59,885 nt of DNA from the IMG/VR virus record IMGVR_UViG_3300017970_000002, positions 1-59,885 of that record; one strand, written 5' to 3'. Below are positions 10,421 to 49,510 of this stretch, in pieces (position 1 is the stretch's first letter; each line of letters starts with the position of its first letter). This DNA is from a virus. Taxonomy: Duplodnaviria; Caudoviricetes. The position numbers and the translations under genes were made by a program. Under the pieces are notes generated by a model. That model saw nothing but the letters and a program-made list of their open reading frames with translations, made no database searches and was not told the origin of the DNA.

Positions 10421-12693
10421 AGGTCAAACTCGCCTGAATACTCAAACCTTTCCTCGGGATCGTCCGCTCGCCCGTACTTGAACATACGCGAGATGACGGA
10501 CTCCTGGTCCTCTGGCTTGTACATGTAGGACTGCATCGGCGAGTCAGCAGGAATATCCATGGCCTGGAAGCCAGGGGAGTAGATTGGGTGTTCTAGACGC
10601 CCGCCGATCCGTTCACGCACGTCAGAGAGACCGCGCATCCCTTGATGGATCTCGGTGTCGTAGAGTGAGAGCAGGATGAAGCCGAGGGACATTATCCGGT
10701 CGTCATGGCCGCCGTAGGCTGCTTTCATGTCCTGCGAATCCCAGTCGCGCTCCCAGTCTTCCATCTCCTCGACGAACCACGGCGAGTTGATGTCTATCCA
10801 GCCATCGCGGAGGGCTTTGGTTACCCAATCTACGAGCATGCAGCGGAACCAGTAGACGGTGACGATCCCGAGCTTATGGGCTTTGTGCTTCTGGATGCGT
10901 GCGGAATCGTAGCGCACCCAGGGGTGGAAGTTCACCCAGCCGCGTTTGCGTAGTTCGTTCTGGACGACTTCGCCGTTGCCTTTGCATTCGATCGCCGCGC
11001 GGACTTGACGGCGCATGCCTTCTCGGTAGACCGAGTAATAAGTTCCGACCGCCATGGCGAACGGCCAGAGGTCGAAGGCGTTAGTGTAATCGTAAGCATA
11101 CTCGGCGACTTGCGCGTCATTGCGATAAGTATCTCCTTTCCGCATAAACTCCAGGACTGAACGATCTTGTCCAAGACCGTCAGAGGTATCGCATCCGTAG
11201 CCATAAAGCGCAGTTTCTTCAGGGTGCTCCCAGATGTAGAGTTTGCCGAGTCCATCGTCACTTGAGTAACCCTCCCATTTCACAGGTTGAAAGCAGTAGT
11301 CTAGCGGGAGCCCCGTGCCCCACGTGCAGCGGACGTTGATTGGCGCGATATTACGGTCCCAGCGAGGTTCCGGTACACGAAGGCGGTCTGGGATATCGGG
11401 ACCAAGGATTGTATAAACGCCGAGAGGGTTTCGTGCGGAAGTAGCAGAATGGTAGGCTGCAATCGTCTCGGCGTCGAATACGCTGATATTTGAAGATTGG
11501 AACGCTTCGAGATCATCGGCGGGCATCTCCTGGAAGAACTTGTTCAGCTCCTGCTTGGCTTTGTGCTCCTCGTACTCGACCTCGTAGAACCACATCTGCT
11601 CGCGCGGCATCTGCCAGCCTTCGCCCAGGAATCGGCGCAGGAGCGCATTCACCTTCACGTAGGATCGGGCGCGCTCGGCATGAGCGGTCACCATTGCGTT
11701 CGGCGACCAGTCATGAGGCATCGGACGGGCGCGCAGCCAGGTCTCGGACGGGTAGAGGTCGGTCCCGACGAACCACGGAAGGAAGATGGGGCGCAGGCGC
11801 GAGCGCCCGGAGTCCCAGTTCTCCTTCGCGTACTGCCAGGAGCGGTGCCACCAGTTTCGGCGCCCCATGGCGGTGGATTCGAGGACCAGGAACATCCACG
11901 GGGAATCGTGCATTGCACGCATGAGAGAGGCGTCTACGAGATCCTCGGCGTTTTTGTAGTCCGAGAGTTCGGAGAGATGCGCAACGGTCGGGGTGGTGCC
12001 ACGCGCGATCCCGGTGAACTGCGCACCGTGCTGGATCGAGATCGCAGAGTCCTGGCCGGGGAATTCCATCAGTTCGCCCACAACCTGGCGGATCTCGGGC
12101 TGGAGGTAGAACGGCTGCTCGTCGAAGGCCAGCTCCATCATTCCGGCCATCTTCGTGGACTTATCGGGGTCCGAGGACGAGACTACCGCGTTCACGTGGG
12201 AATAGAATTGCGCGCGGTGGAGCACGCGGAGTTCGGTGTCGGTCGAGACGCCGAGCTGGCGGGCCTTGAGTTCGATGAAGGCGATGGCGATCTGCTGGAG
12301 TTCGTTCTCGGAATCGAGGGTGTGAAGGATACGTTGCGCGACGTTCGGGGAGTAGTGGATCAGGGTGCCATCGCGGGAGCGGATACGTGCGTAGCGGGTC
12401 GCCCAATAATTGAAGTCACAACGACAGACCTGGCGTTCATTGCGTTTCCACTGTTCCTCGTCAGCATGAAGATCCCTCTTCAACTTTCCGGTCTCGGGGT
12501 CAATGAGATCACGGAAGTACCGCGCGGCGCTATCGACTTCGGAAACCGAGTGATACTTTAGCTCGAAGTCGAAGCGCGGTTTGCCCTGAGCGTCACGCGC
12601 TGCTTGCACCTTGGCGAGATTGCGGTCGATTACGGCGCGGTGGTAGATGGCAGAAACTCCTCGATGGCCTGTAGGATAGCGGGCACATCCCAC
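10417..12693 (-). CDS. terL: Terminase large subunit
   Basis: Walker A 'LKARQLGVST', 'HLSE', 'ESTAMG', nuclease 'GCDTSDG' and 'HDDRIM'; true start uncertain. Confidence 0.92.
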   Translation of the reverse strand: MGCARYPTGHRGVSAIYHRAVIDRNLAKVQAARDAQGKPRFDFELKYHSVSEVDSAARYFRDLIDPETGKLKRDLHADEEQWKRNERQVCRCDFNYWATRYARIRSRDGTLIHYSPNVAQRILHTLDSENELQQIAIAFIELKARQLGVSTDTELRVLHRAQFYSHVNAVVSSSDPDKSTKMAGMMELAFDEQPFYLQPEIRQVVGELMEFPGQDSAISIQHGAQFTGIARGTTPTVAHLSELSDYKNAEDLVDASLMRAMHDSPWMFLVLESTAMGRRNWWHRSWQYAKENWDSGRSRLRPIFLPWFVGTDLYPSETWLRARPMPHDWSPNAMVTAHAERARSYVKVNALLRRFLGEGWQMPREQMWFYEVEYEEHKAKQELNKFFQEMPADDLEAFQSSNISVFDAETIAAYHSATSARNPLGVYTILGPDIPDRLRVPEPRWDRNIAPINVRCTWGTGLPLDYCFQPVKWEGYSSDDGLGKLYIWEHPEETALYGYGCDTSDGLGQDRSVLEFMRKGDTYRNDAQVAEYAYDYTNAFDLWPFAMAVGTYYSVYREGMRRQVRAAIECKGNGEVVQNELRKRGWVNFHPWVRYDSARIQKHKAHKLGIVTVYWFRCMLVDWVTKALRDGWIDINSPWFVEEMEDWERDWDSQDMKAAYGGHDDRIMSLGFILLSLYDTEIHQGMRGLSDVRERIGGRLEHPIYSPGFQAMDIPADSPMQSYMYKPEDQESVISRMFKYGRADDPEERFEYSGEFDL

Positions 12694-13862
12694 TTGAACG
12701 GATCGCGGTTACGGAAATAGCGCACATGCGGCCCGTACCATTCGTCAACTAGGGTATCGCGGAACCATTGCCAGCCGGAGTGGCAGGGGAGCAGGATCAG
12801 GGTTGGGACGCCACAGAGCGCGGAGAGATGAGCTACGGCGGTGTCGGCGGTGACTACGTAATCACAGCATTGCACCAAAGCCGTTGTGTCCGTCCAAGTT
12901 GCATCAGGTGCGAGCGTGTAGCAGTACACCTTGTAACCTTTCGCGCCCGGAGACGCGCCAGGAACTAGAGACTCTAATCGACCGCGCGATTGCAAATTAC
13001 AAGCTATGTCACGTGCTGACAGATCGTCTAGCATCTTCGTCTTGCGCATATCGCCGAGTTGCGCAGCGGTCCAACAGAATCCGATGCGTGGTGTCTTATT
13101 ACGTGGCGGCAGGGGTCTATAACACATCTGCGTCCACGCATTCGGCCAAGGCACATCCCCCATCGACCTCATCCCACTCAACGCAGGCAAACTCATCCAG
13201 CTCGTCGAGTAATCGTACTCAAGCTGCAAATCCGCGTCTTTTGAGATAACGCGATCCACGCCGAGTTTCGTCCAATCCGTCCAGTCCTTGAGGCAGTCCC
13301 AGATCATCAACGTGACCTTTGTCGCCCCGGATGCTTTGACAAAGGGTAGCCAGCGCGAGAACAGGAATGCGTCGCCGTATCCGCCTTCGCAGACAACGAG
13401 CACGCGACCGGGCTTGAAGGACGGGTGCCAGGGCGGGGCGACCGGGAACACGTGCCAGGAGTAGTTGATCCGGCCCATTTCCCAGAGCGGCCACGCACGG
13501 GAGAATTCGCGCTCGCGGAGGAGGCATTGCGCGTAGCCAAGTGCGATACGGGTGTTGGAAGGGTCGAGCGAGAAGGCTTTGTCGTAGAGGGATAGAGATT
13601 GCGAGAAATTGCCGAGATCGGATTCCAGGTTCGCGAGGTTGAAATAGGCAACCGGGGAGCGTGGCGAGAAAGTCACGGCTTTGAGGAGGTGATCGCGCGC
13701 GGAGAAGAGGTGGCCTGCGGCGCGTTCGGCGACTGCGAGATTGCAGTAGGTCTTGTAGGATGGGTCGCGCCAGGCGAGTTCGCGCAGGGTTGCGAGCGCG
13801 GATTGCACGTTGCCTTCGGCGAGGGCGGACAGACCAGGCGCATTGGCGAGATGCTCAGACAT
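12630..13862 (-). CDS. TPR-repeat + GT9-like glycosyltransferase
   Basis: N-terminal TPRs; 'EGGYGDAFLFSR', 'MSLP', 'IGFCW', 'DYVVTADTAVAHLSALCGVPT', 'WQW'. Confidence 0.88.
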   Translation of the reverse strand: MSEHLANAPGLSALAEGNVQSALATLRELAWRDPSYKTYCNLAVAERAAGHLFSARDHLLKAVTFSPRSPVAYFNLANLESDLGNFSQSLSLYDKAFSLDPSNTRIALGYAQCLLREREFSRAWPLWEMGRINYSWHVFPVAPPWHPSFKPGRVLVVCEGGYGDAFLFSRWLPFVKASGATKVTLMIWDCLKDWTDWTKLGVDRVISKDADLQLEYDYSTSWMSLPALSGMRSMGDVPWPNAWTQMCYRPLPPRNKTPRIGFCWTAAQLGDMRKTKMLDDLSARDIACNLQSRGRLESLVPGASPGAKGYKVYCYTLAPDATWTDTTALVQCCDYVVTADTAVAHLSALCGVPTLILLPCHSGWQWFRDTLVDEWYGPHVRYFRNRDPFKWDVPAILQAIEEFLPSTTAP

Positions 13863-20695: not shown

Positions 20696-20898
20696 CCGAG
20701 ATCCAAATCCGGCGTGCTTGCAAAAAGCCAAAGCCTCGTTCAAGTAATCAGCTAGGCCACTTCAAGGCCATAGAGTGCCCCGACTGTGGCGCACCTGCTT
20801 ATGAAGGCAATAAGATACAACACGTACGCGTGTATGAATGGGTACCGCTCACATCTCTGGCTAAGCTGACGGCGGGGAAAGGTGAGGTGGAGGGATGA
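20692..20898 (+). CDS. Small CxxC protein
   Basis: Coupled ORF. Confidence 0.55.
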   Translation: MTEIQIRRACKKPKPRSSNQLGHFKAIECPDCGAPAYEGNKIQHVRVYEWVPLTSLAKLTAGKGEVEG

Positions 20899-21650
20899 GC
20901 GAACTCACGATCGCGATCACATGTTATAAGCGCCCGGAGCTGCTCAAAGGGTTGCTGGAGTCGATTGCGCAAGCTGATCTGACACATGTCGTGCGGTTCG
21001 TCGTAAGTGTAGACTGGCACTCGGATGAGATGTTCATGCGCATGTGCGACGTGTTTAGGCAGTCAGTCGGGGACCTCGGCGCGCGTGGTTGCCGTTTGTG
21101 CAAACAGGCGTATCGGCTCGGTATACATAACCACAATCGCTGGTTGATAAATGAAGCCTTCAACGCGCATAAGGCCGAGGCCGTGGTCATGTTGGAGGAG
21201 GACTGCGTAGTCGCGCCTGATGCGTTAAACTTTGCGTGGTGGGCGTTGCAGCAGAATGGCGCGATCGTAAACCTAGGTGGCAAATGGTCCGATGGCGTCA
21301 GACATGCCGTACGTGGTACGCACCTTATCGAATCCGCAGGCTGGGCGGTCACTCGCGAGAACTGGCAACAGATCGAGCCTTACTGGAATGGCAAGATGCG
21401 CATGCCTGTCGGCTGGGACTGGTCACTCTCGTACCTCTGCTACGTGCGCGGATGGGACACAATCGATCCACTAGTCGCGCGAGTGAAGAACGTCGGTCGA
21501 ACGAATGGTACGTATCAGACAGCAGCGGATTATGACCTGGATCGCGCGAATGTCGTACTGGCGACCGGGATACCGAAGGAGTACACGCTGCTGGAGGGCG
21601 AACCGGATCGGACTTGGCCTGAGTGGGTGAAAGAGGAGGCACGGCTGTGA
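20895..21650 (+). CDS. GT-A fold glycosyltransferase (GT2/GT13-like)
   Basis: 'ITCYKRPE', 'VSVD', 'MLEEDC', 'GWA', 'GWDW', 'RVKNVG'. Confidence 0.85.
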   Translation: MSELTIAITCYKRPELLKGLLESIAQADLTHVVRFVVSVDWHSDEMFMRMCDVFRQSVGDLGARGCRLCKQAYRLGIHNHNRWLINEAFNAHKAEAVVMLEEDCVVAPDALNFAWWALQQNGAIVNLGGKWSDGVRHAVRGTHLIESAGWAVTRENWQQIEPYWNGKMRMPVGWDWSLSYLCYVRGWDTIDPLVARVKNVGRTNGTYQTAADYDLDRANVVLATGIPKEYTLLEGEPDRTWPEWVKEEARL

Positions 21651-22384
21651 AACTTGTTGTGCTGTCCTCGTGCTATCAACGTCCAGATCTCCTCGCGACA
21701 CTCGCCGAGTCCTGCCAGCTATTCAGGCATGATCTGATCCTGGTCGAAAAGCCCGGAGCCGCATGGACCAACTGCCGCGAAGGGAAACTCATCGCCGCGC
21801 GCGACAAGCTGAAGGAGCTGGCGACGGCTGGTGTCTATACGCACGCGCTGTGGACCGATGGCTTTGACTCGTTCATGTGCCAGCCACTACATGCGATTGC
21901 ACGTGAGCACGCTGCGATGGGTAGCCCAGAGATCATCCTGTCAGCCGAGAAGAACTGCTTTCCTGACGCCACACTAGCCAAGCTCTACCCACTGCAAGAC
22001 TCGCCTTGGGAGTTCGTATGCGCTGGCGGCTGGCTGGTCGAGATATCAGCGCGCGTCTGTGGTGTCTTCGATCAACTCTGCGCTGAGGAGTCGCCGGAAG
22101 ATCAGCTTACCTGGGCGCGCGCGTATGTCAATGGATTCGTCGGCGGAATGGCAACGCTCGATGTAGGATGCAGGATATTCCAGACGATGTGGGGGACCTC
22201 GGAGTTCGACGAGGTGACCGTTACGCCAAAAATCAACGGTGATGTGGTGAATCACGTCACGGGAAGTCATCCTTGCGTCATTCACTTCAATGGCTCAGGC
22301 CCAGATCATCCGACTCAGCGTTATTTGAGCATGTGGCAGCGTTTGTGGTTCGCAAAGCAGCTTCCAGGATCACTGCAAGCATGA
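21647..22384 (+). CDS. Glycosyltransferase resembling the PLOD/LH3 GT domain
   Basis: 'WTDGFD', 'SAEKNCFP', 'AGGW', 'DQL', 'LD..CRIFQT', 'P.VIHFNG'. Confidence 0.85.
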   Translation: MKLVVLSSCYQRPDLLATLAESCQLFRHDLILVEKPGAAWTNCREGKLIAARDKLKELATAGVYTHALWTDGFDSFMCQPLHAIAREHAAMGSPEIILSAEKNCFPDATLAKLYPLQDSPWEFVCAGGWLVEISARVCGVFDQLCAEESPEDQLTWARAYVNGFVGGMATLDVGCRIFQTMWGTSEFDEVTVTPKINGDVVNHVTGSHPCVIHFNGSGPDHPTQRYLSMWQRLWFAKQLPGSLQA

Positions 22385-30024: not shown

Positions 30025-31317
30025 GTGGATTATATGGAAGACCGCAACGTGGAAGTCGAATTTGTGTCGGGCGCGGCTGGCTCGGGCAAAACCTTCGAGA
30101 TGAAACGCCGCATCGCCGAGGACCCGCATTTCGGCATCCTGACCTCGACGACCGGCGTATCCGCGATCAACCTCGACACGGTGACCGTTCACAGCAAATT
30201 GGGCTTCTACGACACGGACAGCCTGCTCGATGCCTACACCTCTGGTAAGCTCCAGCGCCGACTCCGCGCGCTCCATTCCGAGGGCTACCGACGCCTCGTG
30301 ATCGATGAAGTCTCGATGCTTCACGCGCGGCAGCTAGACACACTCTACCTCGCGATCAACGAGGTCAATGTAGGGTCTACGTTCGCCGCGCTCGACCCAC
30401 CGCTCGGGTTGGTCCTGACCGGCGACTTCTGCCAGCTCCCCCCAGTCAAAGGCGAATGGGCATTCAAGGCGCAGTGCTGGCCGGATTTCGCCGCGCACAC
30501 AACGAGGTTGACGAAGATCTGGCGCCAGGCCGATGTCGGGTTTCTGGAGGCGTTGAATCTCGCGCGGTCAGGTGATGGTGTGGAGACCGCTGCGTGCCTC
30601 AAGCACCTGAACTGCAACTTCTCGCTCGGCCTCGACCTGAACTTCGATGGGACCACGATCGTCGCGAAGAACGCCGAAGTCGATCGCTACAACAATATCC
30701 GCATGGCCGCGATCAAGGAAGAGCCGATCAAGCTCGTGAACACGCGATGGGGGCTGCAACTGAGTGACTGGAAGAACATCCCCGAGACGCTGACGGTGAA
30801 GCCTACGGCGCTGGTGATGCTGCTGGCCAATAATAAGGACGAGGCTGGTGGATTTGTGTACGTGAACGGGGACCTCGCGCATGTGTCAGCCGTAGAGGAC
30901 TTCGGTGAGTTCAAGCTGATCGCTATGACCCTGTTGCGTGGCGACAAGAAGGTCGCGGTAGGGCAGATTACACGTCAGAACCTTTCAAAGCAGGAGCCAT
31001 CCGAATCCATGATCGCGCAGGCGCGCCTCAACGGAGACCGCGATCCTTACTTCGACGAGCAACGCAACCGCTGGGTCCTAGGCGAAGTCTGCTACTGGCC
31101 CATGCGGCTCGGGTACGCTTCCACCGTTCATAAATCGCAAGGGTTGTCGCTCGACCGCGTACAGATCGACTGCCGCGATGGGTTCTTCGGCGCGAACAAT
31201 TTGGCGTATGTGGCATTGAGCCGCGCACGGACGGTAGCAGGCATGCGCGTCGTTGGCTCGCCTGAGATATTGGCAAGACGGATCAATCTTGACTCGGAGG
31301 TGAAGGATTGGCTATGA
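30025..31317 (+). CDS. Pif1/RecD-like SF1B helicase
   Basis: GAAGSGKT, IDEVSML, GDFCQLPPV, RQ, YASTVHKSQG, YVALSR. Confidence 0.95.
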   Translation: MDYMEDRNVEVEFVSGAAGSGKTFEMKRRIAEDPHFGILTSTTGVSAINLDTVTVHSKLGFYDTDSLLDAYTSGKLQRRLRALHSEGYRRLVIDEVSMLHARQLDTLYLAINEVNVGSTFAALDPPLGLVLTGDFCQLPPVKGEWAFKAQCWPDFAAHTTRLTKIWRQADVGFLEALNLARSGDGVETAACLKHLNCNFSLGLDLNFDGTTIVAKNAEVDRYNNIRMAAIKEEPIKLVNTRWGLQLSDWKNIPETLTVKPTALVMLLANNKDEAGGFVYVNGDLAHVSAVEDFGEFKLIAMTLLRGDKKVAVGQITRQNLSKQEPSESMIAQARLNGDRDPYFDEQRNRWVLGEVCYWPMRLGYASTVHKSQGLSLDRVQIDCRDGFFGANNLAYVALSRARTVAGMRVVGSPEILARRINLDSEVKDWL

Positions 31318-31529
31318 ATGAGCACCTAGAGGTAAGACTCGTGGAGGCGCTGGAGAGCATCGCGTCATCGTTCGCGAAGATTGCCTATGTAATCAACAGC
31401 GAGAGCATACGCTTATTCGTGAGCTTTGGTGATGGCGCCAACGAGGATGCGCCATTCTGTGTAGAAGCGAACCTGTACACCGGCGAGCATACGCGGCCTG
31501 TTAAGGTGGCCAAGGACATCATCAAATGA
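31314..31529 (+). CDS. Hypothetical protein
   Basis: Coupled ORF. Confidence 0.6.
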   Translation: MNEHLEVRLVEALESIASSFAKIAYVINSESIRLFVSFGDGANEDAPFCVEANLYTGEHTRPVKVAKDIIK

Positions 31530-32974
31530 ACAGTCAGCCTAGGATCGCATTCTGCACGACCTGCAAAGGCCGCGCGCAACACGTCGAGGAGACGCTGCCG
31601 AAGAACCTGCTCGACAACTGCGGATATCAGAACGCCGTGTTCATTATCCTCGATTACAACTCGCAGGATCACCTGCTGGAGTTCGTGAAGACGCGGCATT
31701 CCAAGGCACTCAGCAGCTGGCGACTGGTTGTCTATAGCTACCGCGTGGACACTTCATTCCACTTGTCCCACGCGAAGAACATGGCGGCCCGGCTCGGTAT
31801 CCTCGAAGGCGCCGATATCCTCGTGACCATGGATGCCGACAACTTCACTGGCCCAGGATTCGCCCAATTCATTGCCGAGAAGTTCAAAGCCGCGCCACAG
31901 ACGCAGCCAGGGATGTTCCTGTCGCCCAACTTCCCGCTGATCCATTCCCTCCCCTACGGCCCGAGCCGCCCGCTGCGGGGCTTCGCCGGGCGCCTCGCAA
32001 TCCGCGCGCAGGACTTCGTGAAGATGGGCGGCTATGACGAGACCTTCGATACCTGGCGTGGCGAAGACATCGACATGATCTCGCGGCTTGAGAAGGTGGG
32101 ATACCGTGCGCAATTCATTGATAACAGCTATCTTATCGTCATCCCTCACAACGCCGCCGTCCGCTTCAAGGAGTACCCACACGCGCGGGAGTTGTTTGAG
32201 AATAAAGGTCAACTGAAGGTCATCGACAAGCGCACTGTAACGGTCGTCAATTACGGGCGCTGGGGCGTTGGCACTGTGTACAACAGCTTCACGAACAAGG
32301 AGGTTAAGCTGCTCCCATTACCTACGCGCATCTTCGGAATCGGACTACACAAGACCGGCACGACTTCGCTCGATGCTGCATTCAAGATCCTTGGGTACGA
32401 TAGTTTGCATTGGGGCACCGGCGAGGCTCCTAAGATCTGGAATGAGATGCACTCGACCGGTCACTCGAAGACGCTTGAAGCCTGGTACGCGTTCTCGGAT
32501 CTCCCTATCCCAGTGCTCTACCGCGAGCTGGATAAGGCATACCCTGGATCGAAGTTCATCCTCACGATTCGCAATGAGCAGGCTTGGGTCAAGAGTGTCG
32601 AGAAGCTCTGGGACCCGAGGTACAACCCAACCCGTTGGATGTGGGACGTTTACCCATTCAGCAACCGGGTGCACAAAGCACTCTACGGGCGCGAGGATTT
32701 CGATCGAGACACGTTTCTTGCGCGATACCGCAGGCACAATCAAGAGGTCCAGGGGTACTTCAAGAGTCGGCCAGATGACCTATACGTCATGGACATTGAC
32801 AAGGAAGACAAGTGGCCGGGATTATGCGCTTTCCTCGGTGTCCCTGAGCCATCTGTTCCGTATCCGGCCAGTAACGTAACAACCAAAGCGCCGGTTGAAG
32901 TTCCAGCGGCGCGCATGGCATGTCAGCAGCACATCGTGAAAAGCATGCAGGGCGTGTACGGAGATGGCATATGA
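31526..32974 (+). CDS. GT2/GT7C glycosyltransferase fused to sulfotransferase-family domain
   Basis: 'DYNSQD', 'DAD', 'GGYDE.F..W.GED.D'; then PAPS-binding 'GIGLHKTGTTSL' and 'KFILTIR...W..S'. Confidence 0.88.
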   Translation: MNSQPRIAFCTTCKGRAQHVEETLPKNLLDNCGYQNAVFIILDYNSQDHLLEFVKTRHSKALSSWRLVVYSYRVDTSFHLSHAKNMAARLGILEGADILVTMDADNFTGPGFAQFIAEKFKAAPQTQPGMFLSPNFPLIHSLPYGPSRPLRGFAGRLAIRAQDFVKMGGYDETFDTWRGEDIDMISRLEKVGYRAQFIDNSYLIVIPHNAAVRFKEYPHARELFENKGQLKVIDKRTVTVVNYGRWGVGTVYNSFTNKEVKLLPLPTRIFGIGLHKTGTTSLDAAFKILGYDSLHWGTGEAPKIWNEMHSTGHSKTLEAWYAFSDLPIPVLYRELDKAYPGSKFILTIRNEQAWVKSVEKLWDPRYNPTRWMWDVYPFSNRVHKALYGREDFDRDTFLARYRRHNQEVQGYFKSRPDDLYVMDIDKEDKWPGLCAFLGVPEPSVPYPASNVTTKAPVEVPAARMACQQHIVKSMQGVYGDGI

Positions 32975-33243
32975 GATTCCGCGCGCACATTTACGACCCT
33001 GATACGAAGCCCGCGCCCGACTCATTCGGCACACCGGTAGTGAAGGCTGATCCTGTGTGCTCGGGTAACTGCATTGACGAGGTAATCAAATGGGCCATGG
33101 AGATGCTCAAAAATGCTGGGCCGCGCGCCTATTGCAATATCTACGAGATGAAGGAAAAGAGGCTGGAGTCGATCATCAAGAAGGAGGACGGCAAGCTGGA
33201 TGTTGTATACGGGAGCCTGACGTTGCCAGAACAGAATCCATGA
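32971..33243 (+). CDS. Hypothetical protein
   Basis: Coupled ORF. Confidence 0.6.
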   Translation: MRFRAHIYDPDTKPAPDSFGTPVVKADPVCSGNCIDEVIKWAMEMLKNAGPRAYCNIYEMKEKRLESIIKKEDGKLDVVYGSLTLPEQNP

Positions 33244-33428
33244 CGCCGAAGCGTTACCTACTCGTATACAATCCTGGACTCATCAGCGCGGCTGATATTG
33301 GCAAAGCGCAGGAAGCTCTTGTTGAGGCAAGTGTCCAACTTATTCCACTCCCCCTCGATCCCAACTCTGGTAAGTCGGCCTATAAGCTGATCGATCTCGA
33401 CAACGTAGAGAAGAACTTCTCGGAATGA
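33240..33428 (+). CDS. Hypothetical protein
   Basis: Coupled ORF. Confidence 0.55.
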   Translation: MTPKRYLLVYNPGLISAADIGKAQEALVEASVQLIPLPLDPNSGKSAYKLIDLDNVEKNFSE

Positions 33429-36340
33429 AATCCATCCCAGGCTACCCACTCGATCAAGACGTTCGTATCATTGAGCCATCCGGTACTGGCTCCCTGCGCG
33501 TTCTGGCCATGGGCGAGGCTGGTGGTCGTCACGAAGCGCGTCTCGGTCACCCGTTCGTCAAGCACGCTGAAGCCGGGTCAGTGCTCGAACGCGCGCTGCG
33601 CTTTGCTGGGATTGATCGCGACCAGCTCACCATCACGAATGCAGTCTGGTGGCAACCCCCTAACGACTACCTCGATGGCGCCTGGTACGAGCACAAAGCC
33701 ATCAGCATGTGCCGCGAGTGGAATGATGCGCTGATCGAGGAGCGCCAGCCGAAGTGTCTCCTAGCCCTAGGCGGCATCCCAATGCGCGAACTGAGCGGCA
33801 TGTCGGGCTACCGGGAGGGGATTCTCATGCTACGTGGCTACCCGATCAAGTCGCCGCGTTATGGCATCCCCGTCCTCGGTACTTACCACCCGTCCTATCT
33901 GCGGCGCGGCGAGAAGCAGGAGTCCGAGGAAGGCGCAGACGTAGAGTCAGCAGCCGGACGTGGCATGGATCTCATGGGCGTGCTCATCCACGATATCCAG
34001 TACGCTGTGAAGCTCGCGCGGGATGGGATGCCAGTGCGCCCGGAGCCTCCGCGTCATGTCCTATTCGGCACGCACGAGACCTTGCTGCGGTTCTACGAGG
34101 ACGCCCTCGCGCACCCGGAGCTGCCGATCGCATGGGACATCGAAACCGACCAGTTACTGGCGGCTGAGGACGAGAGCGAAATGGAGCGCTTAGTCCTGAC
34201 CGACGCCGTGACTCAGATCCAGTTCAGCCTGCGCCCGTCCGATGCATGCGTGTTCCGCTGGACCGATGACTTAGCCGACCTCGTGGTCAAGCTCATGCGC
34301 CTGCCTAACCCGAAGCTCGACTTCAACGGCAGATTGAGTGACCGCCCGATCCTGCGCCAGTTCCTTCGCGACAAGGGCCACGAAATCCGTTACTGCGGCG
34401 ACAACCACGATCTGATGGACATGTGGCACCATGCGCAGCCGGATTACCCCAAGGGCTTGCAGCATGTGACGAGTTACTTCGCCAGTTTCCTCGGGCCGTG
34501 GAAGCACTTGAACATCGCGGATCGTGGGTTGTATGGCGCACTCGACGCCGAGAGCCTGCAATGGATCTACAGGAAGTTGCCGGGGGATCTCAGGAAGCTC
34601 GGGATCTGGGATGGGTACGAGCGGCACGTGCTGAAGCTGTCACGCACGCTGGATAAGGTGACGGCGATTGGTATCCCGATCAATGATGAGAAGCGCGTCG
34701 AGTTTGGCAAGGATCTGGATATCGAGAAAGCCGCACTCGAACGGGAATTGCAGAAGCTCGTGCCTGAGGATATCAGGCCGGTACATCCGAAGGAGGGTTG
34801 GAAGAAACTGCCGGGTGCCGTCAAAGCCGACCTGCTTACGTGGAACCTGTATCACAACCCGCAGTCGTGTTTGATGGCACTGGACGCGCTGCCGGATCGT
34901 ATCGAGACAGCCATAGGCACCGTGTACGTCCGTCGCGAATTTGGCGAGATCGACCAGACCGCAATCTGCGAGAACCGCGTGTGCCGCTGGTGCCGACTCG
35001 AACCATTCAACCCGAATTCGCCCGATCAGATCAAGCTGTACATCGAGTTCAAACGCAAGGAGGAAATCGATGCGCTCATCCGGAAAGGATGGGACCGCAA
35101 AAGGGCCGAAGCCAAAGCGAAGTACAAGGTCCCGCGCAACTTCAAAACGGATAAGGAGACCACGGGCAAACGAGAGCTGCTACGACTTGCGAAAGCCACT
35201 GGAGATCAGCTTTTTCCCAGTACCGTCCACATACGTGAATTTGGGAAGCTCAAAGGTACATACGTTGACGGTTGGGCGCCTACTGATGATAAGAGGGCGC
35301 ATTCAACTTTCGGATTTGCCCCAGCCACTTCTCAGTTGTCTAGCGAAAATCCAAACAGCCAAAACGTCCCGAGTGAGAAGTCAAGAGGGGCTGCGATTTC
35401 TCCAACTATTGTTAAGCTGGCTGAGAGGTTCAGAGGGATTATCGAAGCCCCAAGTGGCTTCACTCTCATTGAGTTCGATTGGAGAGCTTTCCACGCCCTA
35501 ATGCTCGGCTTCGTCGCGCAGGACCCGACCTACATGCGCCTCGCGCGCCTCGATATCCACTCCTACTTCGCCGCGTGTGGTATCCTCAAGATCGCGAATG
35601 GTGACAAGCTGCTTGTGATGCCAGACGCCGAGCTAGCCTCCTACCTCGCATGGGTCAAGAAGACGCACCCCGTGGTCCGCGACGGCCAAGCGAAACCCGC
35701 GATCCTCGGCTACGGTCTCGGGATGCGCGGCTATACGCTCTGGCAGCACAACCTAGAATCGTTCTCGGGCCGCGTCGAAGCCGACCGCGTGCTCGACCAG
35801 CTCGATGGCGAGTTCCCGGTGACCGCCAAATTCCGCCGCGCTGCGCTAGAGGAAGCGAATTATGGCAACGAGCATCACGGGCCGAACTGCCTCGTCCTCA
35901 AGCCCTGGTCGATCCGGCGCTTCTGGTCAGTCTACGAGAACAAGCCCGTGACCGATGCCTACCGGCCCAAGAAGGGCGAGAAGGTCTTCGTAGACTCACA
36001 GAAGCAGTACTGGAAGGTAGGCCACGGGTCCGACGCCGAAGCCGCGATCTCCTTCTACGTGCAGAATTCAGCGCACGGCCACATGAAGGAGAACATGCTG
36101 GCGATCGACGACGCGGGCTGGCTCGAACGCTATGGTATGTGCAACACGGTGCATGACGCGTTCTGGTTCTGCTGCCCGAAGGAACTGGCCGAGGAGTGCT
36201 ACGTGAACGTGAAACCGCAGATGGAGGCACCATCGACCGTGCTCAAGAATCCGGTGATGCCCGAGGGGTTCTGGTGCGCTGTGGATGCGACGATTGGGCC
36301 GACGATGAGATCAGCCGACCGGCGGAAGTTCCGTGTCTAG
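33425..36340 (+). CDS. polA: DNA polymerase A with N-terminal family-4 uracil-DNA glycosylase domain and 3'-5' exonuclease
   Basis: UDG 'GEAGG', 'TN', 'YHPSY'; exo 'DIET', 'Y...D'; pol 'SSENPNSQN', 'EFDW', 'R...AK', 'VHD'. Confidence 0.93.
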   Translation: MKSIPGYPLDQDVRIIEPSGTGSLRVLAMGEAGGRHEARLGHPFVKHAEAGSVLERALRFAGIDRDQLTITNAVWWQPPNDYLDGAWYEHKAISMCREWNDALIEERQPKCLLALGGIPMRELSGMSGYREGILMLRGYPIKSPRYGIPVLGTYHPSYLRRGEKQESEEGADVESAAGRGMDLMGVLIHDIQYAVKLARDGMPVRPEPPRHVLFGTHETLLRFYEDALAHPELPIAWDIETDQLLAAEDESEMERLVLTDAVTQIQFSLRPSDACVFRWTDDLADLVVKLMRLPNPKLDFNGRLSDRPILRQFLRDKGHEIRYCGDNHDLMDMWHHAQPDYPKGLQHVTSYFASFLGPWKHLNIADRGLYGALDAESLQWIYRKLPGDLRKLGIWDGYERHVLKLSRTLDKVTAIGIPINDEKRVEFGKDLDIEKAALERELQKLVPEDIRPVHPKEGWKKLPGAVKADLLTWNLYHNPQSCLMALDALPDRIETAIGTVYVRREFGEIDQTAICENRVCRWCRLEPFNPNSPDQIKLYIEFKRKEEIDALIRKGWDRKRAEAKAKYKVPRNFKTDKETTGKRELLRLAKATGDQLFPSTVHIREFGKLKGTYVDGWAPTDDKRAHSTFGFAPATSQLSSENPNSQNVPSEKSRGAAISPTIVKLAERFRGIIEAPSGFTLIEFDWRAFHALMLGFVAQDPTYMRLARLDIHSYFAACGILKIANGDKLLVMPDAELASYLAWVKKTHPVVRDGQAKPAILGYGLGMRGYTLWQHNLESFSGRVEADRVLDQLDGEFPVTAKFRRAALEEANYGNEHHGPNCLVLKPWSIRRFWSVYENKPVTDAYRPKKGEKVFVDSQKQYWKVGHGSDAEAAISFYVQNSAHGHMKENMLAIDDAGWLERYGMCNTVHDAFWFCCPKELAEECYVNVKPQMEAPSTVLKNPVMPEGFWCAVDATIGPTMRSADRRKFRV

Positions 36341-47349: not shown

Positions 47350-48387
47350 TCAGTCAATAAGCTGATAGCCCCACTGAGTCGCATTGCAGACCGCAGGTGT
47401 CCATGCGTCGGTCGTCAGCGGGTTGACATCGAAGCAGTTCCGGTAATCGATGTAAGTCTCGTTCACATAGCGACCAGATGAGTCGGCAACGCTGTCTACG
47501 CCTCCATACCGCGTAACAAGGGATAGTGCGCGGTTCCCGGTATCTGACTTGCGCGCCAGAATGTTCGTCTGGATCGCAATGACGTTCCGATTCGGATTAA
47601 CCGTCTGGAAGTAGTACGTATCGATCGGATAGGGACCGGACGACGGCGCGACTGACCACACGTAGGACGCGTCGCCGAGTGGCGGGTTGTTATTGACCTC
47701 GCTCCAGTTCGATCCGCTCAACGGAGTCCATTGCGTATAGTCACCAGCCGACGCCGAGTAGATCACGCCGATTGCCACGTCGCCGAGGAAGCCATTGAGC
47801 ACTGGATTCCCATCGGTCACGTACACGTCGTCAACGAATACTAGCGCGCTGCCACCAGGTCCGTATATGGAGAACGCGTCTCCTACGTTATCGCCATTCG
47901 GGCTTGTGTCACCGGACACGCTCAAGACCACCTGCCCATTGATCCGCAGGATCACCGAGCCTCCGGTCTTGTTGACCACGAACATGCACTCTACGTAGTA
48001 GTAACGCCCGAGCGTAATCGCTACGGATGGGTCGGTAGTACCAAGCAACGCACCGGGGTTGAAGCCGCTCGGGCCGCCGAACACCGAGATCGTCCCGTCC
48101 GCGTTAATGAGCCACTGGACTTGGATCGTGCCGAGGTGCTGGATCGTCACGCCGCCGCCGTACGCCTGCCAGTTGAATGCGCCGCCCACCGTCCATGTCG
48201 ATGAGTTCTCAATCGTGACGAATGCGCCAAGTCCAGTGAATTGACCACATTGCGGACCGGTGCGTGCCTGCGTGTTGTTCAGGACCAGACCTTGTAGCGA
48301 GTTGCCAAAATTCGAGACCGATGTCCATTTCGACTGGAGATAGGCATTGTCGTAATGGTCGAACGAATCCGCAAAAATGAGCGCCAT
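47350..48387 (-). CDS. LamG-like tail/fibre protein (paralog 1)
   Basis: 'L.F.DSFD.Y','YYYVE','DDVYV.D','NP.T...WT'. Confidence 0.75.
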   Translation of the reverse strand: MALIFADSFDHYDNAYLQSKWTSVSNFGNSLQGLVLNNTQARTGPQCGQFTGLGAFVTIENSSTWTVGGAFNWQAYGGGVTIQHLGTIQVQWLINADGTISVFGGPSGFNPGALLGTTDPSVAITLGRYYYVECMFVVNKTGGSVILRINGQVVLSVSGDTSPNGDNVGDAFSIYGPGGSALVFVDDVYVTDGNPVLNGFLGDVAIGVIYSASAGDYTQWTPLSGSNWSEVNNNPPLGDASYVWSVAPSSGPYPIDTYYFQTVNPNRNVIAIQTNILARKSDTGNRALSLVTRYGGVDSVADSSGRYVNETYIDYRNCFDVNPLTTDAWTPAVCNATQWGYQLID

Positions 48388-48388
48388 A

Positions 48389-49510
48389 TCAGCTCAGTGT
48401 CCCGACGATCTCGCCATTGTGGGTATTGTGCACCCCGTATAGCCTGACAAAGAACGCAGTTGGGTGCGCTACCTGGCCGATACCCCAGTACGATGCGTCA
48501 AAGATCGGCCCAGTCCACGGATGGTTTGTCAGTGGATTCAGCTCGTAGATGAAGAACCACGGGCTATAGGCAGTATTCGGCTCGTACGTATCCGCGTTGT
48601 CGTCGTAAGGCGTGCCATCGATCGAGATGTAGGGCTGCGCCCATTCATCGCCCACTGTCGAGCGCGTCTGGTGCACAAGCAGAATAGCGAGGATGTCATC
48701 AGTCGTGGCTAAAGTCGGCGAGAGTGTGTAGTCGTCTACGTTCCCGATACCTGGCGACTGGTTGTACGCGGTATCGTCGGATGCTGGTATCTGATGCACG
48801 TTCTGCCAGTTCTCGTTTGTGGCCGGGAACGGAGACCATTCGTCCACGTCACCTTCGGCGCTTGTAATCGAGCAGATCACCGAGGAGTCTCCAGCGGCGG
48901 TAGTCAACCCATTTCCGTCGTCTGGATTCACGAGATAGAAGTCGTCAAACAGGTTAATCGAGCCACCAGGTGCACCCATGAGATAGACCCATTCGGCACC
49001 CGGCAACGGCTGACCCTGCGTCGCCAGATACCCGCTGTACACGAGCACCCCGTCGATCCAGATCTCATTGAGTGCGCCACCCTCGTTGAACCCTGTGCGC
49101 CACTCGATGTAATGATAGACCTCGGGCTGAATCAGCGGACCATTTGGGCTCGTCGTCGCTAGGATCGCCCCGTTGGTCGTTTGCTGAATACTCAGCGTGC
49201 CATCGAGTAACGCGTTCAACTGGCACTGATACTGGCTGCCAAGGACTTGAGCGAACGCGCAGATCGGCGTATCCGGTGGCCCAGTGTTGGTCCAGAACGC
49301 GAACCCTACGATCACGTCAACAAGGATCGCTCCCATGCTCCGCGCCACACCGCCAGGGCGAGGTGCCATGGCACCAGGCCCAGTACGCGCAGGCGCATTT
49401 GGCAGATTGGTAGCGATATTGGCGTTGCCGACGATCGACTGGTCCTGCCAGTACTCAGTAAGCTCGCTGGTCACGTAGCCATCGAATGAGTCGATCAGGA
49501 GGATGCTCAT
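48389..49510 (-). CDS. LamG-like tail/fibre protein (paralog 2)
   Basis: Same motifs as paralog 1. Confidence 0.75.
   Translation of the reverse strand: MSILLIDSFDGYVTSELTEYWQDQSIVGNANIATNLPNAPARTGPGAMAPRPGGVARSMGAILVDVIVGFAFWTNTGPPDTPICAFAQVLGSQYQCQLNALLDGTLSIQQTTNGAILATTSPNGPLIQPEVYHYIEWRTGFNEGGALNEIWIDGVLVYSGYLATQGQPLPGAEWVYLMGAPGGSINLFDDFYLVNPDDGNGLTTAAGDSSVICSITSAEGDVDEWSPFPATNENWQNVHQIPASDDTAYNQSPGIGNVDDYTLSPTLATTDDILAILLVHQTRSTVGDEWAQPYISIDGTPYDDNADTYEPNTAYSPWFFIYELNPLTNHPWTGPIFDASYWGIGQVAHPTAFFVRLYGVHNTHNGEIVGTLS

What the first reader, a model, noticed from the sequence alone, without database searches (positions are those of the whole stretch)
31526..32974. Glycosyltransferase-sulfotransferase fusion inside the replication module
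Seen: GT2/GT7C motifs fused to a PAPS-binding P-loop domain, located between the helicase and the UDG-polymerase. Inference: it makes a sulfated glycan on DNA (hypermodification), virion proteins or the host surface. The P-loop could also have kinase-like activity. No base-hydroxymethylase gene is evident, so the acceptor is unknown.
Basis: partly seen in the sequence, partly recalled or inferred. Interest (0 to 1): 0.72.

Follow-up and report, generated by a model that had tools for sequence, protein, structure and literature searches.

The report
Phage sugar-adding, sulfate-adding fusion enzyme
This complete phage genome encodes a real two-in-one enzyme, predicted to attach a sugar and then sulfate it, from a large, almost purely viral gene family that moves between unrelated phages and whose target is unknown but is probably not DNA.

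Summary
ORF 31526-32974 (+, 482 aa) has an N-terminal GT-A glycosyltransferase with an invariant DxD motif. Its C-terminal half is a Sulfotransfer_4 domain (Pfam E 6e-37) with both PAPS-binding motifs. Five ATGA overlaps couple it into one operon between a Dda/PIF1-like helicase and a UDG-PolA fusion.

The window is a complete 59.9 kb phage genome with terminal repeats. The fusion belongs to a large family: 1277 hits, the top 120 at 56-66% identity over full length, in Atlas clusters that are 97-100% viral.

The replication-module position is not conserved. In 27 viral loci the enzyme stays 45-63% identical, while the helicase and polymerase recur in 1 locus each.

Recurrent partners are APS kinase (fused at either end, or within 2 genes in 5 of 27 loci), a papain-like protease (13 of 31 loci, fused once), sugar O-methyltransferases and further glycosyltransferases. 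13 of 120 homologs carry a membrane anchor. Genes for hydroxymethylpyrimidine synthesis are absent from the window and from 13 of 13 complete carriers.

I read it as a self-contained PAPS-dependent enzyme that makes a sulfated glycoside on a non-DNA acceptor. The acceptor is unresolved. This scan found the same family earlier on other DNA (e1-3581418, e1-5971384). My four paper searches found no description of it.

The parts
31526..32974 (+). GT-A glycosyltransferase :: Sulfotransfer_4 fusion gene (482 aa)
   Evidence: ORF; Pfam; 120 of the 120 listed homologs align over 88-100% of its length at 56-66% identity (100% for the window's own record)
31526..32311 (+). GT-A glycosyltransferase domain, about aa 1-262
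   Evidence: AF2 model has block-mean pLDDT mostly 71-97 over aa 1-210. VIA-align: PmHS2 8viw Z 18.6, rmsd 3.4, 226 aligned, model range 3-259; K4CP 2z86 Z 17.4. Pfam GT7C and GT2_2
31832..31840 (+). DxD metal/NDP-sugar motif D103-A104-D105 (followed by N106)
   Evidence: T101, D103, A104, D105 and N106 are invariant in 30 of 30 aligned homologs
32054..32074 (+). W177-R-G-E180-D181-I-D183, a Gal/GalNAc-transferase-type acidic motif inside the Glyco_transf_7C match
   Evidence: W177, E180, D181 and D183 are invariant in 30 of 30; Pfam GT7C covers aa 153-200. Likening it to the WGGE(D/N) motif of GT7/GT27 enzymes is from recall
32327..32884 (+). Sulfotransfer_4 (PAPS-dependent sulfotransferase) domain, aa 268-453
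   Evidence: Pfam E 6.2e-37. PDB sequence hits: 9kf1 at 6.9e-12, Schistosoma SULT about 1e-8, SgdX2 4.4e-7. VIA-align: Cpz8 9kf2 Z 18.1, rmsd 2.6, 178 aligned; SgdX2 Z 18.0
32336..32368 (+). 5'-phosphosulfate-binding loop G271-I-G-L-H-K276-T-G-T279-T-S281
   Evidence: Aligns to the Cpz8 N-terminal G-x-G-x-x-R-T-G-T-x-S loop (alignment). G271, G273, T279 and S281 are invariant in 30 of 30
32570..32596 (+). 3'-phosphate-binding motif R349-x7-S357
   Evidence: R349 is conserved in at least 90% and S357 in 30 of 30. It aligns to the R...S motif of Cpz8 and Schistosoma SULT. Essentiality of the equivalent R/S pair was shown for Stam10 (PMC13291958, passages read)
32885..32974 (+). Low-confidence C-terminal tail (aa 454-482) ending G-D-G-I
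   Evidence: Block-mean pLDDT 34-51. The same terminal G-x-G-I occurs in P0002, P0003, P0012, P0022 and P0029. Function unknown
30025..31317 (+). Upstream Dda/PIF1-like helicase, same operon
   Evidence: ATGA overlap with the next ORF
31314..31529 (+). 71-aa ORF coupled to both the helicase and GT-ST by ATGA overlaps; no family
32971..33428 (+). Two small coupled ORFs (32971-33243 and 33240-33428); no family
33425..36340 (+). Downstream UDG::family-A DNA polymerase fusion, same operon

Best explanation
The gene encodes a soluble, self-contained bifunctional enzyme. The N-terminal GT-A domain uses a nucleotide-sugar and a divalent metal (DxD D103/D105) to put one sugar on an acceptor hydroxyl. 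The C-terminal Sulfotransfer_4 domain then uses PAPS from the host pool (this phage has no APS kinase) to sulfate a hydroxyl, most probably on that sugar. This gives a strongly anionic sulfated glycoside. The gene is a horizontally mobile phage accessory gene, not part of the replication machinery, and it is made during lytic infection. The acceptor is not DNA. My best guess is a conserved host glycoconjugate or precursor at the cytoplasmic face of the inner membrane (LPS core, or a lipid-linked envelope glycan). Modifying it would alter the cell surface during infection, for example by masking receptors against superinfection or against loss of progeny. Shown: domain identities, intact motifs, family distribution, mobility and partner genes. 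Inferred: order of the two reactions, the donors, the acceptor and the biological role.
For: Enzyme identity: Pfam; PDB sequence hits; AF2 model with pLDDT 78.4 and pTM 0.74; fold matches at Z 17-18.6 for each half; catalytic and cofactor motifs invariant in 30 of 30 homologs. PAPS use: APS kinase is fused at the N-terminus (P0030) or the C-terminus (P0022, P0034) of homologs. A stand-alone APS kinase (Pfam 2.3e-58) lies directly downstream in L004, L006 and L009. By coordinates it lies within 2 genes in 5 of 27 records. Mobility and strong constraint: the enzyme is 45-63% identical in 27 of 27 viral loci. Of its window neighbours, the helicase and PolA recur in 1 of 27 loci each and TerL in 6 of 27 at a median 23% identity. 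This argues for an acceptor that does not vary with the phage backbone. Viral family: Atlas clusters of 285, 87 and 54 members are 97-100% viruses. Only 4 of 29 hits in prokaryote genome contigs are full length, and the two with named neighbours show phage-type genes (phage lysozyme in L030, YbcO nuclease in L031). Glycan context: O-methyltransferases (Methyltransf_24/TylF) lie next to it in L004, L014-17 and L027; extra GTs occur in L008, L022 and L027; Methyltransf_24 is present in 8 of 27 records. Sulfotransfer_4 domains are fused to multi-GT proteins, an ABC exporter and TPR-GT41 proteins. Bacterial ST-only homologs have glycan genes within 5 genes in 6 of 11 loci examined. Membrane proximity: 13 of 120 homologs have a TM-like segment, 12 at the C-terminus and 1 at the N-terminus. 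Envelope and lysis neighbours: a papain-like protease sits next to it in 13 of 31 full-length loci and is fused to it in P0060. A phage lysozyme follows that protease in L004 (Pfam) and, through the shared cluster c50, in L006. Against DNA: PF00303 gave 0 matches in the window and in 0 of 13 complete carriers, 2 of 27 overall.
Against: The window's own protein has no TM segment. It sits in a tightly coupled replication operon. The structurally characterised Sulfotransfer_4 members act on small molecules rather than glycans: oxamniquine for Schistosoma SULT (entry titles), and the Cpz8 and SgdX2 substrates from recall. Most carriers look lytic, with a tyrosine integrase in 2 of 13 complete records and 0 in the window, so classical lysogenic seroconversion is not the role. 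A regex test for lipoprotein genes beside GT-ST was not significant (3 of 108 near vs 8 of 617 far, p 0.22). In 16 of 27 viral loci the protease is absent, and in most records no other glycan gene was found (PLOD-GT in 1 of 27). No acceptor has been identified by any test here.
Confidence: 0.4

Rival explanations
1. Protein glycosylation. The enzyme decorates proteins with a sulfated sugar, either the phage's own virion proteins (as in mycobacteriophage virion glycosylation) or a conserved host protein as a takeover step. In this phage the other three GT genes would act with it.
For: GT-A fold neighbours include polypeptide GalNAc-transferases (Z 15.5-15.9). The window encodes three further GTs whose nearest solved relatives act on proteins or glycoproteins: an LH3/PLOD GT (6wfv 5.2e-7) and mimivirus R699 (2e-5); GnT-I (0.0016); and a TPR-plus-GT layout like OGT. 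In at least 6 loci GT-ST lies on the same strand next to structural or packaging genes: TerL in L014-17 and L027, a Mu gpT-like head gene in L024 and L011, an SU10 adaptor in L025, and a Gp80 fibre in L005 and L020. GT plus O-methyltransferase clusters recall the mycobacteriophage system (recalled; also named in scan note e1-5982804). A mostly lytic lifestyle fits a virion role.
Against: Virion proteins of these phages are too divergent to detect (MCP and portal were not shared), yet the enzyme is 45-63% identical. That fits a constant acceptor better. No Ser/Thr-rich run (maximum 15 of 30 residues) occurs in window proteins, and the only collagen-like run lies in an antisense frame inside the GT-ST gene itself. 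Membrane-anchored variants (13 of 120) are hard to square with cytoplasmic capsid assembly. PLOD-GT co-occurs in only 1 of 27 records.
Confidence: 0.22
2. Small-molecule product. The enzyme makes a soluble sulfated glycoside from a host metabolite, nucleotide or signalling molecule, for example to inactivate or mimic it (metabolic takeover or counter-defence).
For: The closest solved sulfotransferases all act on small molecules: Schistosoma SULT on oxamniquine, Cpz8 in caprazamycin synthesis and the activating sulfotransferase SgdX2 (titles). The enzyme is self-sufficient in most phages, with no other glycan gene nearby. High conservation across unrelated phages fits a universal metabolite.
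Against: No PADLOC family matched GT-ST or its partner. Membrane anchors, the protease fusion and glycan-type neighbours are not explained. No transporter or biosynthetic partner was seen.
Confidence: 0.13
3. DNA hypermodification. The enzyme glycosylates and sulfates a base in phage DNA to block restriction.
For: In this phage the gene is translationally coupled between the helicase and polymerase. DNA would be a backbone-independent acceptor, which fits the high conservation. Carriers are mostly lytic. DNA methylase genes lie within 5 genes in L007, L008, L018 and L029.
Against: No route to a hydroxylated base was found. PF00303 is absent from the window and from 13 of 13 complete carriers. 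Tet_JBP gave 0 of 27 and 0 in the window, but its control rang in no genome over cut-off, so that result is weak. The link to replication genes is not conserved (1 of 27 loci). 13 of 120 homologs are membrane-anchored. Partners are sugar O-methyltransferases, a protease and lysis genes rather than nucleotide-metabolism genes. No known DNA glycosyltransferase appeared among the listed fold matches, which is inconclusive.
Confidence: 0.07
4. The C-terminal P-loop domain is a kinase rather than a sulfotransferase, giving a phosphorylated sugar.
For: The sulfotransferase fold derives from P-loop kinases (established knowledge, recalled), and the PSB loop resembles a Walker A loop.
Against: The Pfam Sulfotransfer_4 score is 127.9 bits and no kinase family matched. 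The 3'-phosphate-binding R349...S357 motif, specific to PAP(S) binding, is conserved. Cpz8 with bound PAP matches at Z 18.1. APS kinase, which makes the sulfate donor PAPS, is repeatedly fused or adjacent.
Confidence: 0.02

Closest known systems
Sulfotransfer_4 (PF17784) enzymes with solved structures: Cpz8 of caprazamycin biosynthesis (9kf1/9kf2), the activating sulfotransferase SgdX2 (8y9p), and the Schistosoma oxamniquine sulfotransferase (4mua, 5tiz)
   Same: The C-terminal half has the same fold and the same cofactor motifs. Z is 17-18.1, rmsd 2.6-3.5, with 178-196 residues aligned at 24-28% identity. The PSB loop and the R...S 3'-PB motif align.
   Different: Those are stand-alone enzymes of about 200-260 aa acting on small molecules. 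Here the domain is fused behind a glycosyltransferase, is phage-borne, and sits in glycan-type contexts. Substrate-side loops (aa 293-298 and 321-328) are invariant in sequence but modelled at low confidence.
GT-A domains of glycosaminoglycan polymerases and GT2/GT7/GT27 enzymes: Pasteurella heparosan synthase PmHS2 (8viw, 8vh7), E. coli K4 chondroitin polymerase (2z86), ppGalNAc-transferases, and beta-1,4-galactosyltransferase
   Same: The N-terminal half shares the fold: Z 18.6 for PmHS2 (226 aligned, rmsd 3.4), 17.4 for K4CP and 15.5-15.9 for ppGalNAc-Ts. It has a DxD motif and a W-x-G-E-D-x-D acidic motif inside the Glyco_transf_7C match.
   Different: Identity is only 12-17%. There is one GT-A domain, not the two of the polymerases, so single-sugar transfer is expected. 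Dozens of GT-A enzymes tie within about 3 Z units, so the fold does not name the donor or acceptor.
Saccharomicin tailoring pair Sam10 (fucose-2-O-sulfotransferase) plus Sam35 (dedicated APS kinase) (PMC13291958; abstract and passages read)
   Same: The logic is the same: a glycan-directed PAPS sulfotransferase acts after glycosyl transfer, with a dedicated APS kinase to boost PAPS. In Stam10 the equivalent R/S pair that binds the 3'-phosphate is essential.
   Different: That is a bacterial secondary-metabolite cluster with separate proteins. The Stam10 structure (9VKI) was not among my sequence or fold hits. Here the GT and ST are one polypeptide in phages.
Mycobacteriophage virion glycosylation (Che8 and relatives; Freeman et al. 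2023, recalled and named in scan note e1-5982804; paper not read here)
   Same: Phage-encoded GT-A glycosyltransferases occur, sometimes with an O-methyltransferase, outside the structural operon.
   Different: No sulfation is known there, and the acceptors are C-terminal Ser/Thr-rich tails, none of which I found in this window. Homology was not tested.
Phage DNA sugar hypermodification (T-even glucosyl-hmC and similar; recalled)
   Same: A phage GT is expressed together with replication genes in this one genome.
   Different: Those systems need a dCMP/dUMP hydroxymethylase or a TET enzyme, which is absent here. No sulfated DNA base is known.

Membership tests
Sulfotransfer_4 (PF17784), PAPS-dependent sulfotransferases | Profile match above the curated gathering score | tested here: met
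   127.9 bits vs 22.8, E 6.2e-37, profile positions 1-213 of 215
Sulfotransfer_4 (PF17784), PAPS-dependent sulfotransferases | 5'-phosphosulfate-binding loop after the first strand | tested here: met
   G271-I-G-L-H-K-T-G-T-T-S281 aligns to the Cpz8 and Schistosoma loops. G271, G273, T279 and S281 are invariant in 30 of 30
Sulfotransfer_4 (PF17784), PAPS-dependent sulfotransferases | 3'-phosphate-binding R-x7-S motif | tested here: met
   R349 (at least 90%) and S357 (30 of 30); aligned to solved homologs
Sulfotransfer_4 (PF17784), PAPS-dependent sulfotransferases | Sulfotransferase alpha/beta fold | tested here: met
   Cpz8 Z 18.1 (rmsd 2.6, 178 aligned), SgdX2 Z 18.0, Schistosoma SULT Z 17.0
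Sulfotransfer_4 (PF17784), PAPS-dependent sulfotransferases | PAPS-dependent sulfate transfer activity | not testable with these tools
   The only support is indirect: APS kinase fusions and neighbours
GT-A fold glycosyltransferases (GT2/GT7-like; Glyco_transf_7C, Glyco_tranf_2_2) | Profile matches above curated cut-offs | tested here: met
   GT7C 36.1 vs 23 bits; GT2_2 28.8 vs 27.3 bits. Both cover only aa 153-200
GT-A fold glycosyltransferases (GT2/GT7-like; Glyco_transf_7C, Glyco_tranf_2_2) | DxD metal and nucleotide-sugar binding motif | tested here: met
   D103-A-D105 is invariant in 30 of 30
GT-A fold glycosyltransferases (GT2/GT7-like; Glyco_transf_7C, Glyco_tranf_2_2) | GT-A Rossmann-like fold over the whole domain | tested here: met
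   PmHS2 Z 18.6 over model residues 3-259; K4CP 17.4; SpsA 15.6
GT-A fold glycosyltransferases (GT2/GT7-like; Glyco_transf_7C, Glyco_tranf_2_2) | Assignment to one CAZy family, donor sugar and stereochemistry | tested here: inconclusive
   GT2, GT7, GT27 and GT45-type structures tie within about 3 Z units. NCBIfam gave no equivalog; the best was EpsD at 25.3 bits vs a cut-off of 370
Phage DNA sugar-hypermodification systems | Enzyme that creates the hydroxylated base (dNMP hydroxymethylase of the thymidylate-synthase family, or TET/JBP dioxygenase) | tested here: not met
   PF00303: 0 in the window, 0 of 13 complete carriers, 2 of 27 overall. PF12851: 0 in the window and 0 of 27, but the control rang nowhere over cut-off, so that half is weak
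Phage DNA sugar-hypermodification systems | Conserved linkage to DNA replication or nucleotide metabolism genes | tested here: not met
   Helicase and PolA are shared in 1 of 27 loci each. Neighbours elsewhere are packaging, structural, lysis, methyltransferase and protease genes
Phage DNA sugar-hypermodification systems | Modified nucleoside in virion DNA | not testable with these tools
   No cultured carrier: 0 full-length hits in 50,697 phage records
Lysogenic O-antigen seroconversion modules (Gtr-type) | Temperate phage with an integrase | tested here: not met
   PF00589: 0 in the window and 2 of 13 complete carriers. Serine recombinases were not searched
Lysogenic O-antigen seroconversion modules (Gtr-type) | Membrane GtrA flippase and GtrB bactoprenol glucosyltransferase partners | tested here: not met
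   No such Pfam family appeared among the 72 window ORFs scanned or the 150 viral-locus neighbours scanned
Mycobacteriophage-type virion glycosylation | Ser/Thr-rich acceptor tails on capsid or tail proteins | tested here: not met
   The richest 30-residue window in any window protein has 15 S/T, and no runs were found
Mycobacteriophage-type virion glycosylation | Glycans on purified virions | not testable with these tools
   Needs virions
   No kinase family appeared in Pfam or NCBIfam. The loop is the sulfotransferase PSB loop, and the PAP-specific 3'-PB motif is present

The most novel reading that the evidence does not exclude
The sulfated sugar goes onto the phage's own DNA or virion. That would make this the first sulfated nucleic-acid or capsid modification, spread by a gene that hops between unrelated lytic phages because its acceptor is common to all of them. 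The tight coupling to helicase and polymerase in this genome would then be meaningful. This needs a so-far unrecognised way of creating an acceptor hydroxyl on DNA, or direct use of a structural feature common to virions.
Probability: 0.08. Interest if true: 0.9.

Novelty: new variant of a known kind. Interest (0 to 1): 0.6.

Why it matters
Both catalytic domains are textbook families. But my four full-text searches found no paper describing a phage-borne enzyme that both glycosylates and sulfates (the four phrases for phage, phage-encoded, viral or virus-encoded sulfotransferase matched 0 papers).

The family is large and almost exclusively viral. It is far better conserved than the genomes that carry it, and it repeatedly recruits its own PAPS supply. 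That pattern marks a function under strong selection in soil and freshwater phages.

Finding the acceptor would define a new kind of phage-host or phage-particle chemistry based on sulfated glycans. It could also supply a compact one-polypeptide tool for making sulfated glycosides.

Tried and rejected
1. A single-protein scan of viral contigs found only 1 locus; the alignment-based scan was needed.
2. INPHARED phages gave no full-length hit, only a 29% match to the N-terminal half in an unannotated 8.4 kb record. There is therefore no cultured carrier.
3. I looked for window neighbours conserved with GT-ST and found none, so the replication-module reading was rejected as a family property.
4. 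PLOD-GT co-occurrence was 1 of 27, so I rejected it as a general partner.
5. The lipoprotein-neighbour idea: lipobox-like ORFs sit just upstream in L004, L006, L013, L025, L031 and L032 by eye. My regex test was not significant (p 0.22), and the regex missed some of the cases seen by eye. The idea is unresolved and is not used as evidence.
6. Homology among the ORFs directly upstream: only L003 and L010 matched each other. No shared candidate acceptor peptide was found, so a RiPP-like glycopeptide reading stays speculative.
7. The only collagen-like (G-x-y)n run lies in an antisense frame inside the gene.
8. The pI of the family (median 8.3, range 5.6-9.4) does not discriminate DNA binding.
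9. PADLOC gave no match, and NCBIfam gave no equivalog.
10. BFVD viral structures gave only single-domain matches and no two-domain orthologue.
11. The Tet_JBP search is uninformative because its control rang nowhere over cut-off.
12. I guessed that PDB 9kf1 was the saccharomicin enzyme. That was wrong: the paper's structure is 9VKI, and 9kf1 is Cpz8.
13. I did not run complex prediction, a second structure job, the 1.84-billion-protein search or the read-mapping tools.
Full report
**What is there.** The ORF 31526-32974 (+, 482 aa) exists as described. Pfam places a Sulfotransfer_4 domain at aa 268-453 (E 6.2e-37). It also places two glycosyltransferase profiles, Glyco_transf_7C and Glyco_tranf_2_2, around aa 153-200. 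All three are above their curated cut-offs.

By sequence, the C-terminal half matches solved sulfotransferases: 9kf1 at 6.9e-12, Schistosoma sulfotransferases at about 1e-8 and SgdX2 at 4.4e-7. The alignment covers the 5'-phosphosulfate loop and the R...S 3'-phosphate motif.

An AlphaFold2 model built on a 30-sequence alignment (pLDDT 78.4, pTM 0.74) shows two domains joined by a small beta-hairpin. The model's least confident stretches are aa 293-298, 321-328 and the tail from aa 452.
- Residues 3-259 superpose on GT-A glycosyltransferases: Pasteurella heparosan synthase 2 at Z 18.6, K4 chondroitin polymerase at 17.4, and many GT2/GT27 enzymes at 15-17.
- Residues 268-459 superpose on Cpz8 (Z 18.1), SgdX2 (18.0) and Schistosoma SULT (17.0).

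In 30 aligned homologs the following are invariant: the DxD motif (D103-A-D105), the acidic W177-x-G-E180-D181-x-D183 motif, T279 and S281 of the PSB loop, and S357. R349 is at least 90% conserved. Both halves therefore look catalytically competent.

**Where it sits.** The window is a complete viral genome with direct terminal repeats. It carries a head-portal-terminase block on the minus strand and a long plus-strand early block.

The gene lies between a Dda/PIF1-like helicase and a UDG::PolA fusion. The sequence shows five successive ATGA overlaps: helicase, a 71-aa ORF, GT-ST, a 90-aa ORF, a 62-aa ORF, then the polymerase. There is no plus-strand terminator-like site.

The genome has no tRNA, no APS kinase, no thymidylate-synthase-type hydroxymethylase and no tyrosine integrase.

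**The family.** The protein search returned 1277 proteins at E<=1e-3. The 120 listed are all full-length fusions at 56-66% identity, apart from the window's own record. None comes from a cultured phage.

ESM Atlas clusters holding the fusion (285, 87 and 54 members) are 97-100% viral. Among one genome per prokaryote species, only 4 of 29 hits were full length: MAG contigs labelled Solibacteraceae, two Alphaproteobacteria and a Deltaproteobacterium. Their neighbours are mostly small ORFs with no family. The few named ones include a phage lysozyme in L030 and a YbcO nuclease in L031. The other 25 hits were stand-alone sulfotransferase domains. Stand-alone GT halves are rare (38 short hits, few complete).

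**The position is not conserved, but the gene is.** I fetched 27 viral loci. L008 repeats the contig of L002, L014-L017 are near-identical, and L012 and L023 are close. In these loci the enzyme is 45-63% identical to the window's.

BLAST of all window proteins against all locus proteins found the helicase and the polymerase in 1 locus each, both in L013. It found the terminase in 6 loci at a median 23% identity, and nothing else of note. Even in L013 the enzyme (57%) is better conserved than the helicase (46%) or the polymerase (31%).

GT-ST is therefore a mobile accessory gene under much stronger constraint than the phage backbones. This points to an acceptor that does not change from phage to phage.

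**Recurrent partners.**
- *APS kinase.* It is fused to the N-terminus (P0030) or the C-terminus (P0022, P0034), which means at least two independent fusions. As a separate gene it lies directly downstream in L004, L006 and L009 (Pfam 2.3e-58). Over whole records it occurs in 6 of 27, and in 5 of 13 that are at least 90% complete. By coordinates, five of these copies lie within two genes of GT-ST. This is strong indirect evidence that the enzyme consumes PAPS.
- *A 264-332 aa protein (alignment A2).* It has no Pfam family. It matches the papain-like cysteine protease xylellain (3ois, E 5.9e-7), with invariant Cys and His. An HMM finds it beside GT-ST in 11 of 27 viral loci plus L030 and L032, but not in the window. 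In P0060 it is fused to the C-terminus of GT-ST (E 2.9e-44). A phage lysozyme follows it in L004 (Pfam); the L006 counterpart belongs to the same cluster, c50.
- *Sugar O-methyltransferases (Methyltransf_24/TylF).* They lie directly downstream in L014-17 and L027, and two genes away in L004. They occur in 8 of 27 records.
- *Further glycosyltransferases.* These occur in L008 (FkbM-GT2), L022 (two upstream) and L027 (PLOD-type). PLOD-type GTs are present in only 1 of 27 records.
- *Membrane anchors.* 13 of 120 homologs carry one TM-like hydrophobic segment, 12 at the C-terminus and 1 at the N-terminus.

**What the wider Sulfotransfer_4 context says.** Longer proteins with this domain are fused to multi-GT enzymes, to an ABC exporter or to TPR-GT41 modules. 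For 11 bacterial stand-alone homologs, 6 have polysaccharide or LPS genes within five genes. So although the solved members act on small molecules, prokaryotic members often sit in glycan assembly.

A published precedent for this logic is saccharomicin: Sam10 sulfates a fucose only within the assembled glycan, and Sam35 is a dedicated APS kinase (PMC13291958, abstract and passages read).

**Weighing the acceptors.**

*DNA.* Arguments against:
- No gene for making a hydroxymethyl base is present in the window or in any of the 13 complete carriers (2 of 27 overall).
- No TET was found, though that search had no working control.
- There is no conserved link to replication genes.
- Some homologs are membrane-anchored.
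- The partners are sugar-tailoring, protease and lysis genes.

The points in favour are this genome's operon structure and the need for a backbone-independent acceptor. I put DNA at about 0.07.

*Virion or host proteins.* These fit the lytic lifestyle (integrase in 2 of 13 complete carriers) and the frequent position beside structural genes. They also fit this phage's three extra GTs, whose nearest solved relatives are protein or glycoprotein enzymes. But divergent virion proteins fit poorly with such a conserved enzyme, and no Ser/Thr-rich or collagen-like acceptor is visible.

*A small-molecule product.* This fits the solved relatives but explains none of the partners.

*A conserved host envelope glycoconjugate or lipid-linked precursor at the inner face of the membrane.* This explains the most observations: conservation across backbones, membrane tethers, glycan-type partners and neighbourhood with lysis and envelope genes. 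But it is not demonstrated, and this window's protein has no anchor. I give it 0.4, including the enzyme part, which on its own I hold at about 0.85-0.9.

**Known or new.** Both domains are members of known families; the membership tests are listed separately. The fused, virus-specific family and any phage-encoded sulfation of a glycan were not found in print. Searches returned nothing relevant in the listings. PF17784 occurs in 4 papers, none on phages. Four phrases for phage, phage-encoded, viral or virus-encoded sulfotransferase matched 0 papers.

This scan had already met the family on other DNA (e1-3581418, e1-5971384). Those notes report the same kinase and protease partners and the same unknown target, all of which I found independently here. 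What this window adds:
- a complete genome in which the gene is welded into the replication operon;
- the count showing that this placement is an exception;
- negative evidence on the DNA route;
- the membrane-anchor and lifestyle tallies.

**Verdict.** It is a real, probably active bifunctional glycosyl-sulfotransferase of an undescribed phage family. The acceptor is open, and DNA is unlikely.

Noticed in passing
window 30025-36340 (+): Five consecutive ATGA start/stop overlaps chain the helicase, three small ORFs, GT-ST and the UDG::PolA fusion into one translationally coupled unit. The three small ORFs (31314-31529, 32971-33243, 33240-33428) have no family.
   Followed up: partly
window 20895-21650 (+) and 21623-22384 (+): Two overlapping extra glycosyltransferase genes lie in the early block. 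One is GT2_3/GnT-I-like (Pfam 4.7e-12). The other is a PLOD/LH3-type GT (Pfam 2.6e-19; PDB LH3 6wfv 5.2e-7 and mimivirus R699 2e-5), a type best known from collagen glycosylation. No collagen-like gene was found in the window.
   Followed up: partly
window 12630-13862 (-): A TPR-repeat protein with a weak GT9-like C-terminal match (E 8.4e-5, 22.4 vs 22 bits) overlaps the terminase gene start. The TPR-plus-GT layout recalls O-GlcNAc-transferase-type protein glycosyltransferases. The TPR similarity to OGT (2.8e-19) may be generic.
   Followed up: partly
window 33425-36340 (+); L013 12057-14882 (-): A uracil-DNA-glycosylase domain is fused to the N-terminus of a family-A DNA polymerase (971 aa). 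The same fusion (941 aa, 31% identity) occurs in the one related backbone among the loci.
   Followed up: no
L003-L006, L009-L011, L013, L021, L025, L026, L030, L032; protein P0060: A papain-like cysteine protease family with no Pfam model (3ois-like, invariant Cys and His) travels with GT-ST in 13 of 31 full-length loci and is fused to it once. It is absent from this window. Its role (processing, lysis, or acting on the same target) is unknown.
   Followed up: partly
C-termini of homologs P0002, P0003, P0008, P0017, P0020, P0025, P0044 and others; window aa 454-482: A subset of homologs shares a short C-terminal tail motif: an aromatic residue, x-x-W, 6-8 residues, then Y. Several, including the window's protein, end in G-x-G-I. 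This may be a docking or membrane-association signal.
   Followed up: no
L004 9335-9991, L006 9409-10008, L013 9225-9989, L025 8525-9004, L031 7423-7791, L032 6830-7300: ORFs directly upstream of GT-ST in several unrelated loci look like lipoproteins (a lipobox Cys after a hydrophobic stretch; the one in L006 also has a twin-arginine-like motif). A crude regex enrichment test was not significant (p 0.22).
   Followed up: partly
L026 8928-9989 (+): An adenylosuccinate-synthetase homologue (Pfam 1.1e-39, 353 aa) lies three called ORFs downstream of GT-ST. Its size and context recall PurZ of 2-aminoadenine (Z-genome) phages (recalled).
   Followed up: no
window 47350-48387 (-) and 48389-49510 (-): Two adjacent paralogous genes both match phrog_2448 of unknown function (1.8e-26 and 8.6e-11), next to a 978-aa ORF in the tail region.
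   Followed up: no
L003 about 11612-12052 (+), by record coordinates: The APS kinase copy between GT-ST and the protease in this 101 kb complete phage carries one in-frame TAA, so it may be broken or split.
   Followed up: no
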